From assembly GCA_963677895.2 (NCBI GenBank), contig CAXXGJ010000006.1:288001-352000 (forward strand): a stretch of DNA of 64,000 bases, in the 5' to 3' direction. How positions within the stretch are numbered: position 1 is the first letter of the stretch; each line of letters begins with the position of its first letter. The stretch comes from Treponemataceae bacterium. GTDB taxonomy: Bacteria > Spirochaetota > Spirochaetia > Treponematales > Rectinemataceae. The position numbers are program-made. Shown one piece after another: positions 15,901 through 24,900 of this stretch.

Positions 15901-18900
15901 CGCTTTCAGCAGTTTCAGCTTTTGGGCCAGCGGCATCTGCCGTTCTTCCTTCGGAAGGACGGGGCCGAGCTTGGGGTTGATGATGCAGCGCACCAGTATG
16001 TAAATGATGAAGATCGCGGCGAGCATGAGGCCGGGGAAGACGCCGGCCAGCCACAACTTGCTGACGGGCTGCCGCGCGATCATGCCGTAGAGGACGAGGA
16101 CGACGCTCGGAGGAATCATGATGCCCAGCGAGCTGCCGGCTTGTATCACGCCGGTCACCATTTTCTTGTCGTATTTTCTCTTGAGCATCTCCGGGAGCGC
16201 GATGCTGGATCCCACAGCCATGCCTGCCACGCTCAAACCGTTGATCGCCGATATGATCGACATGAGAATGACCGTTCCGATGGCCAATCCGCCGGGTACG
16301 GGACCCATCCAGACATGGATCAAGTCATAGAGATCGTCCGCGATGCCCGATTTGGCGAACATGTACCCTATGTAGATGAATATGGGAAGCGTGAGCAAAG
16401 GGTACCAGACGAGGAGCTGAAAGCTCGCCTGGAAGGACATGCCTATGCCGCCTTTCCCCCAGAGGAGGACGGCGAAAATCGCGCCGACCCCGCCTATGAC
16501 CGCGAAAATATGTCGGCCGGTGAGAAGGAGAACTATCATCGACGAAAACATCAGTATCGCCATCAATCCATAGCCGGTCATTTTTTACCCTCTTCTTTGG
16601 GTTTCTCTCCCCTGAGATCCTCGCCCCTGAGCGTCGCGATATCCTTGATGAACTCGGATATCACCTGGAGGAGCATGAGGATGATGCCCGCGACCATGAA
16701 TATCTTCACGGGGAGCACTTTCGGCGCCCATGAGGAATAGGTGACCTGGCCGTATCGGGCGGCGTACTGGATGCCCTGTATGCCGCCGATGATGAGGACG
16801 ACGACATAGAAGAGGATGATGGGAAACGTTATCACGTCGGAGAGCGCCTTTCTTTTCGGGGACCACTTGTCGTAGAAGACATCCATGCGGACATGGCCTC
16901 CCAGAAGCAGCGCGGACGCGCCTCCGAGAAGGTAATAGGGCGCCATGAAAAACTGGGTCAATTCCACGGCCCAGACATTGGGCTTGTTGAAGATAGTCCG
17001 CGTGATCGTATCGTAGAGCAGAATTCCCATCATTACGAATATCAGATACATCACGATCTTGCCGACCCACTTGCTCGTCGCGTCGACATATTTTACATAG
17101 GTTTTTGCCGCCTTGATCATCGAAACCTCCTGATGATGGATCCGAGGTGTCAAATAACCCCTATCCGGCGGGAAGAAAAGCCGGATAGGGGAATCAGTAG
17201 TCCGGGATGAAGTACTTGCATCATGCCTGCATCAGTACCTGTAGGGAGCTCCCGCTTTTTTCATGGTCGCGTCGTATTTTTTCAGTATTTCGACGACCCT
17301 TGCGTTTCTGGGGCTCTTCTTCGCGGCCTCGTCCCAGAATTTCAGCGCCGCATCCTCAACGACTTTCCATTCCTTGTCGGGAATGGTCGTAAGTTCGAGC
17401 TTTCCGCCGTTCACGCGGTAGTTGGCTTCGCCGTACCAGTACCAATGGAGCCTATAGTAGTGCGACTTGTCGATGGCCAGCCTGACCAGCTGCTGCAGAT
17501 GGGGAGGGATCTTGTTCCAGGCGTCGGTATTGACGAACCAGCCGCCGGACCAGGCGCCCGAGATCGGGTTCGTCAGATAATACTTCGTGACATCGGCCCA
17601 GCCGACCGTGTAGTCTTCGGTGATACCCGACCAGGCGACGCCGTCGAGCATGCCGGTCTGCAGCGCCATCTCCACGTCCTCATAAGGCATGACGACGGGT
17701 ACGACGCCGAACTGCTGCATGAACTGTCCGCCTGTGGGGAACATGTACATCCTCAAGCCCTTGAAGTCCTTGATCGATCGGATGGGTTTCGTCGTGGCGA
17801 AGTTGCATGGATCCCAGCTTCCCTGGCTGAGCCAGGTGACGCCTTTCACTTCGTCGTAGGCTTCCTTCCATATTTCATTCAAACCATACCAGTTCCATAG
17901 GACGTTGACGTCGAGGCCGTACCTGGCCGCCAGCGGGAAGTAGGCGCCGAAAATCCGCACATCGACGGGCGACGCCATTGAGTCGTCGTCGCTGACGGCC
18001 ATATCGACCGTGCCTTCCTGCAAGGCCCTGAAGAGCTCGCCGTGCGGAACGAGCTGATCAGCGGTATACACATCGATGATCATCTCCCCGTTCGCGGCGA
18101 TATTGAACTCGTCGATGGCGTTTTTGACCACATGGTCATTCAAGGCAGGTCCGGCATATGACTGGAGCCTCCACCTGATGACATCCTTTTTGGCTTCTCC
18201 CTGGGCTGGGCCTTCAGCTACTTTTTCCTTCGCGCCGCAGGCGCCCAGGATTAAAGCGAATCCTACCGCAATTGCCATGAGGATCAGGAATTTCGTATGC
18301 TTTCCCTTGACTCCGGATTTCATAGCGCCCCCTTATGAGGTGAACCAGACTTGTATACAGGAAAACCTGTAACAGCTAACTCTTAGCCGATATTTTGCGT
18401 TCGTCAAGGATGTTTTTTTAAATTCGTCAAAAAAAATTGCAATATTTATTCAAGTGGAACAAATTTTGCGCGTTATCCGCCGTGGCGCTGAGGCCGGTTG
18501 TTTGATATCAAATTTTTACAAAATAAATATTTGTTGACAACGGCGTATATGTCGGCATATTCTTGAACATCATTATCATGTATGCCTGCAGTGTGTTTTT
18601 CGCATGCACATGGCATCAGCCGCATATGACGTCTCGATAGCGAAAGCACGCCGTTGGCCGACATCGATAGGGAAGGAAGGCCATGCCAAGCAAGAAAGAA
18701 GAAGTCATGAGTGGTGTGTCGGGACCGGATGGCAAGACAGCGGCGCAATGCCGCGAAATACGTATCCGCGTCAATGGCTCGTGGCGAAGCTTCAAACTTG
18801 AAGGCGACCTCGACAATGCCACGACGCTCTCCTACCTGTTGCGGGAAAAGCTGGGATATACAGGACTCAAGGTCTCCTGCGATGAGGGTGCCTGCGGCGC

Positions 18901-21900: not shown

Positions 21901-24900
21901 CTAGCCGAGGCGGCGCACGCGGTCGCTTCTCCCCAGCTGAGGAACATGGGCACCATAGGCGGCAATCTCTGCCAGGAGCCGCGCTGCTGGTACTATCGCG
22001 GACTCGACAACAGCTTCCATTGCCTCAGGAAGGGCGGGGATCATTGTCCGGCCTTGACCGGCGAAAACCGCTACCATTCCATATTCGGCTCCATGCGGGT
22101 AGGCAGGCCGGGCTGCTCCTCGGAGTGCCCGGACAATATCGACATACCCCGCTACATGGAAAGGATACGCGCCGGCGAGATAGCCGAAGCGGGGCGCATC
22201 ATCCTGGAGAACAACCCGATGCCGGCCGTCACAGGCCGCGTCTGCCCGCATTTCTGCGAGCAGGGCTGCAACCGCGGCGAACAGGACAGCGCCGTTTCGA
22301 TCAGGGCGGTGGAACGCCGCGTGGGCGATTACATCCTCGAGAACAAGAAGAAGTACCAGAAGGCTCCCGCCAAGGAAAAAGGCAAGAAGATCGCGATCAT
22401 CGGGGGCGGACCGGCCGGCCTCGCCTGCGCCTATTTCCTGCGGCTCAAGGGTTTCGGCGTCGTGATCTACGACAAACAGCCCAAGCTCGGCGGAATGCTG
22501 CGCTACGGCATCCCCGACTTCAGGCTTTCCCCGGGCGTGCTGGACAGCGAGATCGATTTCATCCTCTCGCATGGCATCGTCGCGAAGACCGGCACGCAGC
22601 TCGGCAAGGATTTCACGCTCGACAGCCTCAGAAAGGAAGGCTTCAACGCCGTCTTCCTCGCGATGGGTTCCTGGCGCGCAAAAGGCATGGGTGTCGAGAA
22701 CGAAAAGCATCCGAACATCCTCCCCGGCATTTCCTTCCTGGAAGGCGTCAAGTGGAACGGACCGCCCGCGATGAACGGCATCGTCGCCGTCGTCGGCGGC
22801 GGCAACACGGCCATCGACGCCGCGAGGACAGCGCTCCGCTGCGGGGCGAAGAAGGTCGTCCTCCTCTATCGCAGGACGCGAGCAGAGATGCCCGCCGAAG
22901 ACGAAGAAATCGAGGACGCGATCAAGGAAGGCATCGAGCTGCAGTTCCTCGTCGCCCCGAAGAAAGTCCTGCTGGGAGGCGCGAAACTTGAGGGCCTCGA
23001 ATGCTGCAAGATGAGGCTCGGCGAGCCTGACGCATCCGGGCGGCCGCGTCCCGTCGAGATAAAGGGAAGCGACTTCCTCTTCAAGGCCGACTGGGTGGTT
23101 TCGGCCATCGGCCAGGACCAGAACCTGTTGGGTCTCGACAATACGTCCTATGGCGCCATCGCGCTGACCAAAGGCAACGGCATCGATGCCGACCCCGAAA
23201 CCTATCAGACGAGCGCGGCCGGAGTATTCGCCGGCGGCGATGTAGCGACCGGACCGGCCACGGTGGTGGAAGCCCTCGCGGCGGGAAGGAAAACGGCTGA
23301 CTCGATCGAGGAATACCTCGCCGGCGGCGCGCTGAAGAAGGCCGCGGAGGGTCCCGGAAGGGCGGGAAAACTCAGGCCGATCAACGACAAGGCGCTCAAG
23401 CCTTCGGAGCGGGCAAGCGTCAAGGAGCTGGACCCCTGCGAGCGTTGCATGGACAAGGAAGACTATGCGACGCTCGAGGACGGCAAGGTGAGCATGGAAG
23501 CCCATCGCTGCCTCGACTGCAGCTGCGTGGCCGTCAACGCTTCCGACGTCGCGCCGGCGCTGATCGCGCTGGGGGCGACGATCAAGACGACCAAAAGGGA
23601 CATCGCGGCCGAGGACTTCTATACGGTGGATCTGATGACGACCACTGTGCTTGCCGTCGATGAACTCGTGACCGAAATCTCCATACCGGCGCCCAAGGCC
23701 GGGACAAAATTCAGCTTCCAGAAATTCAGGGTGCGCAATTCCATAGATTTCCCGATCGTGAGCGTCGCCTCCGCCCTGGACTTCGAGAAAGGAAAAATCA
23801 ACGGCGCCAGGATAGTGTTCGGCGCGGTCGCGCCCATTCCGCTAAGGGCCGTGAATGTCGAGGAAATCCTCATCGGAAAGACGGCGAGCGAGGAGACGGC
23901 CGAGATCGCGGGCGAGACAGCGGCCAAGCAGATGTTCCCGCTGGAGAGAAACCGGTACAAAGTGCAGATACTGAAGGGACTTTTGCGCAAAGCCATAGTG
24001 GCGGGCAAATAGGCGGCGCGGGAAAGCGCCCGCCTGCCATCGTCGATGGCGGGCGGGCGCCGAAGCCGCTCCTTATCGTTTTCCGGGCCGTATCGGCCTA
24101 ATTCCGTATTTTCCGCGAATCCAGCCAGTTCCGAAGCGGCGGCAGCGTCTCCGCCACCAGCCCGACCAGGTCGGTTCCCATATCCTCGTCGTATCGCGAA
24201 AGAATGAAACCGGTTAGTTCCTCGTCGAGCATAGGCCGGTCCAGGGCGCCCAGAAGATCGCCGAGAGGGCGCGCCGGCGCCGTGCCTTTGCTGTTTCGCG
24301 GCGCCGCGCTTTTGCCGCTCCACAGCGTCGAAACGGGAGAGCTCGACAGCTCGAACAGCGAAATGAGCGAATTCCTGGTGCGCGGTTCTTCGCGGTAGAG
24401 GTAGAGGAGATCGAGAATGGCTATGTATTTCTCCTCTCCCTCGTTTTCTATGATCCTCGGTATGATCTCCTCGATATTGTGCCTGCGCAGTCTCAGAACG
24501 GCCATGTATTTCCCGCCGCCTTCGATGAATCCGGCGACGAAGTCCGACCAGATCTTCGTCTGGACGATGCTGGGAATTTTCAGCATATTGCCGAGCGGGG
24601 CGAAAACGGCCGCGAAGGGCCACGCGATCACGCTGCGGAAGAAGTTCGCGCGCACAACCTTCTTGTCGAAACCGCGCAACGTGTTGTGCGCGGCGAGGTA
24701 TAGTCCGTTCGCGAAAGAGATGACGAAAAACTTGGCCAGGTTGAAAAACATGCCATCCTGCGCCCATGGCCAGACGATATCGAAATTCGACTTGACGAAT
24801 CCGAGGATGGGCACCGAAAAGCCCGTCCAGAACAAGGATTGGGCGACATTGTCGAAACTGATGCTTTTCAGTTTCCATTCGCTGAGCCGGCCGCCGCGGT

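What a model noticed while it worked through the whole genome (the two positions that open the first line are those of the whole stretch)
18683..24012. Molybdenum hydroxylase fused to a GltD/NfnB-like NADPH module inserted in its FAD domain
g00741 (1587 aa) is a single chain holding the Mo-pterin subunit of a xanthine-dehydrogenase-family enzyme, then its FAD subunit split in two by an inserted Fer4_20 + Pyr_redox_2 module of the GltD/NfnB/SfrB kind; a 2Fe-2S subunit gene (g00740) lies just upstream. Reading: a purine/aldehyde hydroxylase wired directly to NADP(H) through a second flavin and extra Fe-S clusters, possibly a flavin-based electron-bifurcating (or confurcating) Mo-hydroxylase. That would add the xanthine dehydrogenase family to the enzymes known to bifurcate electrons.
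Evidence so far: pfam.tsv: Ald_Xan_dh_C 28-156, MoCoBD_1 195-424, MoCoBD_2 446-723, FAD_binding_5 794-909 (hmm 2-113), Fer4_20 953-1033, Pyr_redox_2 1047-1346, FAD_binding_5 1426-1481 (hmm 112-169), CO_deh_flav_C 1491-1583. swissprot.tsv: 956-1367 41% to Moorella NADP-formate dehydrogenase beta and Geobacter SfrB. Call 52 (region 760-1587): of the 120 best clusters only about 12 share the FAD_binding_5 + GltD-like (+Mo) build, the best 46% identical, 8 of them 1575-1730 aa; the other hits are formate-dehydrogenase fusions matching the inserted module alone.
(Added by a program. Inside this text positions count along the whole contig: contig position 288,001 is position 1 of the stretch shown here. 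"Call 12" and the like, gene names such as g00115 and contig names such as C1 are that model's own, and its searches are not shown. The text may have been shortened before it was handed on; [...] marks where a part breaks off. The agent that wrote the report below was given it as the finding of a first reader that could run no searches.)

Follow-up and report, generated by a model that had tools for sequence, protein, structure and literature searches.

The report
NADPH-wired molybdenum enzyme, not one chain
This is a three-gene molybdenum enzyme of the xanthine-dehydrogenase family whose flavin subunit carries a built-in NADPH-reading module, a build already seen in a gut urolithin dehydroxylase, and the apparent single giant protein most likely comes from one missing base in this assembly.

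Summary
The 1587-aa single chain is probably an artefact. Contigs from 4 of 4 other sequencing runs carry one extra base at 21593/21594. That base restores a stop codon (TGA 21603-21605) and a separate start (ATG 21616). All relatives examined, up to 97% identical, have separate genes of 785 aa and 796-799 aa.

The real unit is 2Fe-2S subunit + Mo subunit + a 798-aa FAD subunit. In that subunit a GltD-like NADPH/FAD/2x[4Fe-4S] cassette sits inside the [4Fe-4S] loop known from 4-hydroxybenzoyl-CoA reductase, between the third and fourth cysteine. This subunit type is not rare: 110 of the 120 best 90%-identity clusters are full length.

UxdC of the Enterocloster 10-hydroxy-urolithin dehydroxylase is described with the same build (PMC12658268). 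The cassette's nearest solved relatives, StnC and NfnA of NfnABC, are NADPH entry modules. For StnC the flavin is shown to be non-bifurcating (PMC10482914). I found no branch partner, so bifurcation is unsupported.

The substrate is unknown. A conserved neighbouring transporter resembles the ethanolamine-binding TRAP protein Csal_0678.

The parts
15259..16581 (-). TRAP transporter large membrane subunit (DctM)
   Evidence: Pfam DctM 232 bits. It is 71-93% identical and syntenic in L002, L107, L110, L111 and L113.
16578..17153 (-). TRAP transporter small membrane subunit (DctQ)
   Evidence: Pfam DctQ 80 bits; syntenic in the same loci.
17232..18323 (-). TRAP solute-binding protein of the ethanolamine-binding (Csal_0678/EtoX) type
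   Evidence: phmmer 452 bits, E 1.4e-134, to PDB 4UAB/4XF5 over residues 45-363, with the stretch WSGITEDYTVGW conserved. The ligand of 4UAB is taken from passages of PMC4646407, PMC10132767 and PMC12410723. 69% identical to the DctP next to the Desulfobacula operon L002.
18324..18682 (.). Divergent intergenic region with promoter-like sites (TTGACA at 18534)
   Evidence: Consensus scan found 7 promoter-like sites against 1.6 expected, most of them in this region. No Rfam family lies here.
18683..19252 (+). 2x[2Fe-2S] small subunit, 189 aa
   Evidence: Pfam Fer2_2 83 bits plus Fer2; NCBIfam glyceraldDH_gamma, pucE and 4hydroxCoAred all below their cut-offs. ATGA overlap with the next gene.
19249..21605 (+). 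Molybdenum cofactor (catalytic) subunit, 785 aa once the missing base is restored; Glu746 in GIGEG
   Evidence: Pfam Ald_Xan_dh_C, MoCoBD_1 and MoCoBD_2. Best solved relative is 4-HBCR alpha 1rm6_A at 244 bits, against PaoC at 174 bits. 65% identical to L002 and 62% to L011. Orthologues are 785 aa.
21593..21594 (+). Site of the one-base deficit that fuses the two genes in this assembly
   Evidence: An extra G or A is present in contigs of 4 of 4 runs. L001 has CTGGGAAAG where the window has CTTGGAAAG.
21616..24012 (+). FAD subunit with inserted NADPH module (UxdC type), 798 aa, preceded by the Shine-Dalgarno-like GAGGGG at 21604-21609
   Evidence: P0311 is 97% identical, 798 aa, with 100% coverage. 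L107 matches residues 1-798. AlphaFold2 model pLDDT 87.9, pTM 0.84.
21628..21975 (+). First part of the XDH-type FAD-binding domain (aa 794-909 of the fused numbering)
   Evidence: Pfam FAD_binding_5, profile positions 2-113; aligned to HcrB, NdhF and CoxM.
21970..22047 (+). HcrB/PaoB-type [4Fe-4S] loop, first three ligands (C913, C925, C933; C908 also conserved)
   Evidence: Aligned to HcrB C122, C138 and C146 in 1rm6_B, and to PaoB. Invariant or nearly invariant in A1. The assignment of the HcrB ligands is recalled.
22105..23529 (+). Inserted GltD-like cassette: Fe-S motifs C956/C960, C999/C1003/C1007 and E1022; FAD and NADPH Rossmann folds; closing EAHRCLDC (C1421, C1424)
   Evidence: NF009410 461 bits over residues 953-1427. 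9bov_A residues 101-569 at 401 bits and 8oh5_C residues 101-567 at 323 bits. Foldseek against NfnL 5jca_L gives rmsd 2.2 A and TM 0.79.
23524..24009 (+). Fourth loop ligand C1426, rest of the FAD-binding domain, and CO_deh_flav_C
   Evidence: CSCVAV..SDVAPAL aligns to RCYAT..GDVAPAL of HcrB (C155). Pfam CO_deh_flav_C 1491-1583.

Best explanation
The locus encodes an ordinary three-subunit enzyme of the xanthine-dehydrogenase family in the gene order 2Fe-2S, Mo, FAD. This is the order reported for the uxdFOC operon. The FAD subunit is of the UxdC type. The 1587-aa chain arises because this assembly lacks one base at 21593/21594.

The FAD subunit is of the HcrB/PaoB kind, with a [4Fe-4S] loop beside the flavin. 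Between the third and fourth cysteine of that loop lies a complete NADPH-input cassette. It is the same cassette, with the same boundaries, that is inserted in StnC and in NfnA of NfnABC.

Its Fe-S motif order is permuted relative to canonical GltD/NfnB. CxxxCP opens the cassette and EAxRCxxC closes it. The very next cysteine (C1426) is the fourth ligand of the host loop.

Inferred wire: NADPH -> cassette FAD -> proximal [4Fe-4S] (C960, C999, C1003, E1022) -> distal [4Fe-4S] (C956, C1007, C1421, C1424) -> loop [4Fe-4S] (C913, C925, C933, C1426) -> XDH-type FAD -> two [2Fe-2S] -> Mo cofactor. The cassette replaces the external ferredoxin of 4-hydroxybenzoyl-CoA reductase with a pyridine-nucleotide port. 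The chain is linear, not bifurcating.

Most likely direction (about 55%): NADPH-driven reduction, such as dehydroxylation, of a still unknown small substrate. Shown here: gene structure, domain order, conserved ligands, family size and synteny. Inferred: cluster assignment, electron path, direction and substrate.
For: Separate genes: an extra base in 4 of 4 runs. The two-gene layout is found in L001, L107-L111, L113 and L114. 120 of 120 best clusters are 806 aa or shorter, with P0311 at 97% identity and 798 aa. 27 stand-alone representatives of 745-809 aa, against 1 fused one (P0003), span the query among the best 150.

Insertion point: HcrB C122/C138/C146 align before the insert and C155 aligns after it.

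Conserved ligands: C913, C925, C956, C960, C999, C1003, C1007, C1421, C1424 and C1426 are invariant, and C933 and E1022 are at least 90% conserved, in 26 sequences.

Cassette kinship: 9bov_A residues 101-569 and 8oh5_C residues 101-567, and Foldseek ranks 1-4. Stand-alone modules P0224, P0199, P0215 and P0234 show the same motif order.

Linear path in relatives: passages of PMC10482914 (StnC aa 102-565 is an inserted GltD domain, its FAD is non-bifurcating and the path is linear) and of PMC11829005 (the authors propose that NfnA FAD relays electrons one at a time).

Operon constancy: a Mo subunit and a 2Fe-2S gene lie next to the FAD gene in all 14 full-length loci wherever flank exists, and in 5 of 5 further genomes of the phylum.

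Known member: UxdC is described with a 4Fe-4S domain plus an FAD/NAD(P) domain and two predicted FADs, and the paper proposes a 4Fe-4S shuttle between them; the enzyme is a reductive dehydroxylase (PMC12658268, section 8 and Discussion passages).

Mo subunit: its best solved relative is the reductive 4-HBCR alpha.
Against: All runs laid were contigs, not raw reads, and some may derive from the same sample as the window, so a real strain-specific frameshift is not excluded. Fused forms do exist elsewhere (P0003 1730 aa, P0004 1575 aa).

The cluster assignment rests on motif order and alignments. The model's coordinates could not be read, so no Cys-Cys distance was measured.

The proximal cluster keeps the NfnB-like Glu ligand (E1022), not the Lys of StnC (PMC10482914). 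That is a feature linked with low-potential chemistry in a bifurcating enzyme.

Direction is open. PaoB, an oxidative aldehyde oxidoreductase subunit, has the same loop, and the neighbouring transporters point to small amines rather than phenols.

I did not compare the UxdC sequence directly. L013 (98% to an E. asparagiformis protein) has the F-O-C order but no second Mo gene nearby, so it may be a paralogue.

MoaC and MoeA were not found in the genome, so whether the enzyme is loaded with cofactor depends on an unproven uptake route.
Confidence: 0.7

Rival explanations
1. The fusion is real in this strain. A one-base deletion joined the Mo and FAD genes into a working 1587-aa Mo-FAD(NADPH) chain, as in P0003 and P0004.
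For: The window's letters give an open frame across the junction with a short ERTEGIA linker. Fused homologues of 1575 and 1730 aa exist in public data. The runs laid were assembled contigs, which drop rare variants.
Against: 4 of 4 runs carry the extra base, and three of them are otherwise identical over 601 bases. The 97%-identical L107 and all other close relatives have two genes in different frames. The internal GAGGGG-ATG start is intact. The difference lies at a short G run.
Confidence: 0.13
2. It is a flavin-based electron-bifurcating or confurcating Mo enzyme. The cassette FAD splits the NADPH pair between the Fe-S/Mo branch and a second acceptor, or gathers electrons from two donors.
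For: The cassette is homologous to NfnB/NfnL (4ylf_B 295 bits, 5jca_L 257 bits; TM 0.79-0.82). The proximal cluster keeps a Glu at the NfnB position (E1022). 4-HBCR-type chemistry is said to need low-potential electrons (recalled).
Against: There is no second exit from the cassette flavin. No NfnA-type [2Fe-2S]/FAD partner or HydBC-type module lies in the window or recurs beside the operon in the related loci. Closer relatives than NfnB are StnC and NfnA of NfnABC (401, 367 and 323 bits). For StnC the flavin is shown to be non-bifurcating (passages of PMC10482914); for NfnA a one-at-a-time relay is proposed (passages of PMC11829005). Glutamate synthase and dihydropyrimidine dehydrogenase use the same module linearly (recalled).
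Confidence: 0.06
3. It runs oxidatively, as an NADP+-reducing hydroxylase or aldehyde oxidoreductase. It would act on a product of small-amine (2-aminoethyl compound) catabolism brought in by the neighbouring transporter, with the cassette as the exit port.
For: The divergent TRAP binding protein scores 452 bits to the ethanolamine-binding Csal_0678. It stays beside the operon in L107, L110, L111, L113 and L002. In L114 a PhnS/PhnT2-like ABC system and an amidase follow the operon instead. PaoB, the FAD subunit of an aldehyde oxidoreductase, has the same [4Fe-4S] loop. The catalytic Glu746 is kept.
Against: The Mo subunit is nearer to 4-HBCR alpha (244 bits) than to PaoC (174 bits) or the Desulfovibrio aldehyde oxidoreductase (138 bits). 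The only characterised enzyme with this FAD subunit is reductive (PMC12658268). EutB was not found in the genome. L109 and L114 lack the TRAP genes. The PhnS-like score is far below its cut-off (80 against 310 bits).
Confidence: 0.3

Closest known systems
[quoted passage not shown]
   Same: Gene order 2Fe-2S, Mo, FAD. [quoted passage not shown] Two FADs are predicted at opposite ends, with 4Fe-4S clusters proposed to shuttle electrons between them. It belongs to the XDH family.
   Different: The substrate-binding subunits are far apart: the Mo subunit of the E. asparagiformis-type locus L013 is 27% identical to the window's. I did not compare the UxdC sequence itself. The paper gives neither the insertion point nor the kinship of the module. 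The genomic context here is a small-amine-type transporter, not a urolithin cluster.
4-hydroxybenzoyl-CoA reductase HcrCAB of Thauera aromatica (PDB 1RM6/1SB3)
   Same: It is the best solved relative of the Mo subunit (244 bits). The FAD subunit shares the [4Fe-4S] loop, with all four Cys positions aligned. Inverted electron flow is the recalled hallmark.
   Different: HcrB takes electrons from free ferredoxin (recalled). Here an NADPH cassette of about 475 residues is inserted between the third and fourth loop Cys. There is no CoA ligase beside the window's operon, although L007 and L098 have one. All 4-HBCR NCBIfam models score below their cut-offs.
GltD-like NADPH-input domain of StnC (Sporomusa ovata StnABC, 8OH5) and of NfnA (NfnABC, 9BOV, 9N5U)
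   Same: Same boundaries (StnC 101-567 against query 953-1426). Same opening RPxCxxxCP and closing EAxRCLxCxC. 40-55% identity. It is likewise an insertion into a host Fe-S protein, and the flow from NADPH is linear (PMC10482914; proposed in PMC11829005).
   Different: The host is an XDH-type FAD subunit, not a NuoG-like protein. The proximal cluster has Glu at the position of StnC Lys170. No HydBC-type bifurcating partner is present.
NfnAB / NfnSL transhydrogenase (4YLF, 5JCA)
   Same: Fold of the flavin/NADPH part (rmsd 2.2 A) and the Glu ligand of the proximal cluster.
   Different: Canonical motif order (EAxRCxxC precedes CxxxCP). It needs the NfnA/NfnS subunit as the second branch, and none was found here.
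PaoABC periplasmic aldehyde oxidoreductase of E. coli (5G5G)
   Same: The FAD subunit has the same Cys-rich [4Fe-4S] loop. The Mo subunit is related (174 bits).
   Different: No inserted cassette. The enzyme is periplasmic and oxidative.
E. coli XdhD-YgfM with YgfK (PMC12507026; abstract and passages read)
   Same: An XDH-family enzyme working reductively with NAD(P)H, next to a GltD-like protein. TIGR03315 Se_ygfK scores 331 bits on the cassette.
   Different: YgfK is a separate DPD-like substrate reductase, not a wire into the Mo enzyme. YgfM is a plain FAD subunit. No urate-pathway genes (SsnA, HyuA, YgeW/Y/X) lie in the window.

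Membership tests
Xanthine dehydrogenase / Mo hydroxylase family (catalytic subunit) | Ald_Xan_dh_C hammerhead plus two Moco-binding domains | tested here: met
   All three Pfam families score above their cut-offs.
Xanthine dehydrogenase / Mo hydroxylase family (catalytic subunit) | Conserved active-site Glu near the C-terminus | tested here: met
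   Glu746 in GIGEG aligns with the Glu of PaoC GVGEL and of HcrA ASEG. The catalytic role of that Glu is recalled.
Xanthine dehydrogenase / Mo hydroxylase family | [quoted passage not shown] | tested here: met
   The upstream 189-aa ORF has Fer2_2 and Fer2.
HcrB/PaoB-type FAD subunit | Four-Cys [4Fe-4S] loop between the two halves of FAD_binding_5 | tested here: met
   C913, C925, C933 and C1426 align to HcrB C122, C138, C146 and C155 and are conserved in A1. Cluster binding itself was not tested.
UxdC-type FAD subunit (XDH FAD subunit with inserted 4Fe-4S + FAD/NAD(P) module) | FAD_binding_5, Fer4_20, Pyr_redox_2 and CO_deh_flav_C in one chain of about 790 aa, in an operon with Mo and 2Fe-2S subunits | tested here: met
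   The match to UxdC itself rests on the paper's description only (PMC12658268).
UxdC-type FAD subunit | Sequence similarity to the published UxdC | not tested
A family member 98% identical to an E. asparagiformis protein is 39% identical to the window's subunit.
StnC/NfnA-type permuted GltD cassette (NF009410 / PRK12771) | CxxxCP at the start, CPxxCxxxC, two Rossmann folds, and EAxRCLxC after the flavin part | tested here: met
   Alignments to 9bov_A and 8oh5_C end to end. The NF009410 score of 461 bits is below its whole-protein cut-off of 516.
NfnAB-type flavin-based bifurcating enzyme | A second electron branch from the NADPH flavin (NfnA-type [2Fe-2S] + FAD subunit) | tested here: not met
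   No such ORF appears among the 51 window ORFs scanned or beside the related operons.
NfnAB-type flavin-based bifurcating enzyme | Ferredoxin- and NAD-dependent stoichiometry | not testable with these tools
   This needs enzyme assays.
4-hydroxybenzoyl-CoA reductase | Equivalog-level similarity of the alpha and gamma subunits | tested here: not met
   TIGR03194 scores 368 bits against a cut-off of 995; TIGR03193 scores 131 against 258.
Xanthine dehydrogenase proper (XdhA/PucD) | Equivalog-level similarity | tested here: not met
   NF043082 scores 383 bits against 780; TIGR03196 scores 269 against 784.

The most novel reading that the evidence does not exclude
The UxdC-type subunit is more than a wire. 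With its NfnB-like Glu-ligated proximal cluster, the cassette flavin would use crossed potentials to deliver one very low-potential electron from NADPH into the loop cluster, or would split the pair with a still unseen partner. That would let a Mo enzyme carry out Birch-like reductions without ferredoxin, making the xanthine-dehydrogenase family a new home for flavin-based electron bifurcation. A milder novel reading, at about 0.25, is that this orthologue group is a new Mo enzyme of small-amine (2-aminoethyl compound) metabolism. Its Mo subunits are 62-65% identical in Desulfobacula, Myxococcota and Acidimicrobiia loci.
Probability: 0.06. Interest if true: 0.85.

Novelty: new member of a known kind. 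Interest (0 to 1): 0.4.

Why it matters
It corrects a gene model: one missing base turned two subunits into a striking but probably false giant protein.

It also shows that a large, unnamed group of molybdenum enzymes in anaerobes carries a built-in NADPH port at a precise place, inside the [4Fe-4S] loop of the flavin subunit. At least 110 full-length clusters at 90% identity have this subunit, and loci come from Spirochaetota, Desulfobacterota, Bacillota, Chloroflexota, Actinomycetota, Bacteroidota and Myxococcota. The port is built from the same insertable cassette that feeds the Stn and NfnABC transhydrogenases.

Only one member, the urolithin 10-dehydroxylase, has a known reaction. The family is therefore a ready source of new reductive (or NADP-linked oxidative) Mo chemistry. 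Sphaerochaeta pleomorpha and Sporobacter termitidis offer cultured hosts.

Tried and rejected
(1) E. coli YgfK as the model for the inserted module. Rejected: PMC12507026 shows YgfK is a separate substrate reductase.

(2) A urate or purine pathway. An NCS2 permease, an Amidohydro_3 and a PALP enzyme lie upstream, but the PALP enzyme scores as threonine synthase. No SsnA, HyuA or YgeW/Y was seen.

(3) Pfam scan of the 61-aa piece around EAHRCLDC, to catch the start of Fer4_20. No hit, as the piece is too short.

(4) Reading the AlphaFold model's coordinates to measure Cys distances. The model file is not in the script box, so the cluster assignment remains an inference.

(5) L011 as a second fused form. 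Rejected: the 1511-aa ORF was an over-extended call. tblastn shows the 2Fe-2S, Mo and FAD genes in three different frames.

(6) L013 as the published uxd operon. Not shown: it has the F-O-C order but no second Mo gene within the 22-kb locus.

(7) A riboswitch in front of the operon. None was found at Rfam gathering scores.

(8) Ethanolamine ammonia-lyase as a link between the transporter and the enzyme. EutB was not found in the 92.8%-complete genome.

(9) Complex prediction was not run, because the two large subunits exceed its size limit.

(10) A literature search for 4-HBCR plus NADPH plus glutamate synthase plus fusion gave nothing relevant among the 15 listed of 321 papers. PMC6147048 Table 4 lists GltD fusions for the DMSO-reductase family only, not the XO family.

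Full report
OBSERVATION

In the window's letters an ORF runs from 19249 to 24012 (+) and gives 1587 aa (P0001). It overlaps, by ATGA, a 189-aa ORF at 18683-19252 (P0002).
- Ald_Xan_dh_C 28-156
- MoCoBD_1 195-424
- MoCoBD_2 446-723
- FAD_binding_5 794-909 (profile positions 2-113)
- Fer4_20 953-1033
- Pyr_redox_2 1047-1346
- CO_deh_flav_C 1491-1583

The upstream ORF carries Fer2_2 and Fer2. NCBIfam places no part above any equivalog cut-off. The best model for the insert is NF009410 (461 bits, cut-off 516). For the Mo part the best are XdhA_XDHase (383 bits) and 4hydrxCoA_A (368 bits), both far below their cut-offs.

THE SINGLE CHAIN IS PROBABLY AN ARTEFACT

The nearest genome relative, L001, is a Rectinemataceae MAG that is 79% identical. 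There the Mo gene ends ...ALGKDRG-TAA and the next gene starts ATG GGA ATG. The window has CTTGGAAAG where L001 has CTGGGAAAG. In the frame one base over, the window reads ...ALGKD-TGA.

I laid Logan contigs of four runs on 21300-21900: two coded organisms, a groundwater metagenome and a digester metagenome. All four carry one extra base, G behind 21593 in three runs and A behind 21594 in one. Three of the four show no other difference over the 601 bases.

With that base the Mo gene is 785 aa and ends at TGA 21603-21605. The FAD gene starts at ATG 21616, behind GAGGGG, and is 798 aa. Relatives have exactly these sizes:
- L109, L110, L113 and L114 have a Mo ORF ending at the same place (785 aa in L109 and L110; my ORF call runs further upstream in L113 and L114) and a 796-799 aa FAD ORF.
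- tblastn places the two genes 22 bases apart in different frames in L107 (97% identical), L110, L111, L113 and L114, and likewise in L108 and L109.
- With the 798-aa protein as query, 120 of 120 listed clusters are 806 aa or shorter, although lengths up to 1397 aa were allowed. 110 are full length at 781-806 aa. The best, P0311, is 97% identical and 798 aa.

The runs were contigs and some may be the window's own source, so a strain-specific frameshift is not excluded; I put it at about 0.13. Fused forms do occur elsewhere (P0003 1730 aa, P0004 1575 aa). One apparent fusion, L011, was my own over-extended ORF call.

THE SPLIT FAD SUBUNIT IS REAL, AND THE INSERTION POINT IS PRECISE

phmmer against solved structures aligns residues 803-944 with HcrB (1rm6_B residues 15-158) through its Cys-rich loop, and also with PaoB. 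Window C913, C925 and C933 fall on HcrB C122, C138 and C146.

The stretch after the insert, CSCVAV..SDVAPAL, aligns with RCYAT..GDVAPAL of HcrB, which puts C1426 on C155. That these four HcrB cysteines bind the [4Fe-4S] cluster is recalled from the 2004 structure paper, which I did not read here. The inserted module therefore sits inside the cluster loop, between its third and fourth ligand.

In an alignment of 26 family members (A1):
- Invariant: C913, C925, C956, C960, C999, C1003, C1007, C1421, C1424 and C1426.
- At least 90% conserved: C933 and E1022.

An AlphaFold2 model of the subunit is confident, with pLDDT 87.9 and pTM 0.84. Its flavin/NADPH part superposes on NfnL 5jca_L at 2.2 A.

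WHAT THE INSERT IS

Its best solved relatives are not canonical GltD or NfnB. They are the GltD-like domains of NfnA in NfnABC (9bov_A residues 101-569, 401 bits; 9n5u_A, 367 bits) and of StnC (8oh5_C residues 101-567, 323 bits). These score ahead of NfnB 4ylf_B (295 bits).

All of them start at RPxCxxxCP and end at EAxRCLxCxC, as the window does (RPGCSSECP ... EAHRCLDCSC). In canonical NfnB the alignment begins only at the CxxxCP. My recollection is that EAxRCxxC precedes it there. Stand-alone proteins of 510-581 aa show the same permuted order.

From this I infer three clusters:
- Proximal: C960, C999, C1003 and E1022.
- Distal: C956, C1007, C1421 and C1424.
- Host loop: C913, C925, C933 and C1426.

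C1424 and C1426 are only two residues apart, which would place the distal and loop clusters side by side. This assignment is an inference. I could not read the model's coordinates, and a Pfam scan of the short closing piece found nothing.

BIFURCATION

Passages of PMC10482914 state that StnC residues 102-565 are a GltD domain inserted in a NuoG-like protein. They also state that its FAD is the non-bifurcating flavin and that electrons run linearly from NADPH through the clusters to the bifurcating StnAB module. Passages of PMC11829005 propose that the NfnA FAD relays NADPH electrons one at a time to a bifurcation site in the other subunits.

A bifurcating NfnB needs a second branch, the NfnA subunit. 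I found no such ORF among the 51 window ORFs scanned. None recurs beside the related operons either.

One point in favour remains. At the position of StnC Lys170 the family has Glu, as NfnB does. I put bifurcation at about 0.06.

THE FAMILY AND WHAT IS KNOWN

An exhaustive phmmer search of 1.84 billion representatives, using residues 780-1587 as query, listed the best 150. Among them 27 stand-alone proteins of 745-809 aa and one fused protein span the query.

In one-genome-per-species contigs, 14 of the 80 kept loci cover the whole query. They come from Desulfobacula, Bacteroidales, Acidimicrobiia, Dehalococcoidaceae, Desulfobacteraceae, Lachnospiraceae, Clostridia, Myxococcota, Sporobacter termitidis, Enterocloster lavalensis, Anaerovoracaceae, Peptococcaceae and one unnamed bacterium. 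L001 is cut by its contig end. The other 65 loci match the cassette alone.

Wherever flank exists, a Mo subunit and a 2Fe-2S gene lie beside the FAD gene. Within the window's own phylum, 6 of 401 sampled genomes (G000 included) have a full-length match. The five others are 44-48% identical and again sit in 2Fe-2S, Mo, FAD operons.

The build is in print. PMC12658268 (section 8 and passages of the Discussion) describes the uxdFOC operon of Enterocloster, a 10-hydroxy-urolithin dehydroxylase validated by heterologous expression. [quoted passage not shown] It is predicted to bind two FADs at opposite ends, and the authors propose 4Fe-4S clusters that shuttle electrons between them, by analogy with 4-HBCR.

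I could not compare the UxdC sequence itself. A family member 98% identical to an E. asparagiformis protein exists, but its locus L013 may be a paralogue. An earlier survey of molybdoprotein fusions lists GltD fusions for the DMSO-reductase family only (PMC6147048 Table 4). My searches found no description of the insertion point or of the kinship with the Stn/NfnABC cassette.

SUBSTRATE AND DIRECTION

The Mo subunit keeps the active-site Glu (E746). Its best solved relative is the reductive 4-HBCR alpha, at 244 bits against 174 for PaoC. Orthologue-level Mo subunits occur across phyla: 65% identity in Desulfobacula L002, 62% in Myxococcota L011 and 62-65% in Acidimicrobiia L004.

The divergently transcribed TRAP transporter stays with the operon in L107, L110, L111, L113 and L002, but not in L109 or L114. 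L110 and L111 give identical figures and may be one sequence. Its binding protein scores 452 bits (E 1e-134) to PDB 4UAB/4XF5, the ethanolamine-binding Csal_0678, and the stretch around the platform Glu is conserved (ligand from passages of PMC4646407, PMC10132767 and PMC12410723).

In L114 the operon is followed instead by a weakly PhnS/PhnT2-like ABC system and an amidase. Other family members sit beside CoA ligases, CoA transferases and thioesterases (L007, L098). That is the setting of 4-HBCR-like enzymes.

The family clearly spans many substrates. For the window's clade a small nitrogenous compound is the best lead, and the direction is open. I favour NADPH-driven reduction at about 0.55. 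NADP+-linked oxidation stands at about 0.3.

COFACTOR SUPPLY

In the 92.8%-complete genome I found no MoaC and no MoeA_N. I did find one XdhC and five MoCoBD_1 loci. Earlier scan notes propose cofactor uptake in this genome. I tested only the absence and presence calls above.

VERDICT

The locus is a new member of a known, barely studied kind of enzyme. Its value lies in the corrected gene model, the defined anatomy of the NADPH port, and the size of the uncharacterised family.

Noticed in passing
window 2315-2364 (-): nhaA-I RNA (Rfam RF03057, 51 bits against a gathering score of 37). It is the only Rfam family at gathering score in the window.
   Followed up: no
window 24098-26812 (-): A 904-aa ORF just downstream of the operon, on the opposite strand, has no Pfam or NCBIfam match. 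It is 94% conserved over its full length in L107, so it is a real gene of unknown family.
   Followed up: partly
whole genome G000 (C38, C18, C6, C35): The genome has five loci with a Moco-binding domain of the XDH family and one XdhC. No MoaC or MoeA_N was found at 92.8% completeness. This fits earlier scan notes of a cofactor-uptake operon elsewhere in this genome.
   Followed up: partly
window 17232-18323 (-): The TRAP binding protein is of the rare non-carboxylate, ethanolamine-binding type (Csal_0678/EtoX). Here it is found in an anaerobic spirochaete and in a Desulfobacula MAG, next to a Mo enzyme rather than next to gamma-glutamylation genes.
   Followed up: partly
window 40444-48168 (+): A run of genes on one strand: creatininase-family amidohydrolase, peptide-type ABC transporter (SBP_bac_5, two permeases, two ATPases), CN_hydrolase and an RraA-like protein. 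It looks like a catabolic operon for a small amide.
   Followed up: no
window 49304-51888 (-): Two adjacent AlaDh_PNT-family genes of 374 and 486 aa.
   Followed up: no
L114 11400-17196: In a 70%-identical orthologous operon the TRAP genes are replaced. A PhnS/PhnT2-like ABC transporter and an amidase-signature enzyme lie directly downstream on the same strand.
   Followed up: partly
L098 11659-13266 and L007 13093-16844: Other family members are preceded or followed by AMP-binding CoA ligases, a CoA transferase and a 4HBT thioesterase. This suggests aryl-CoA substrates, as for 4-hydroxybenzoyl-CoA reductase.
   Followed up: no
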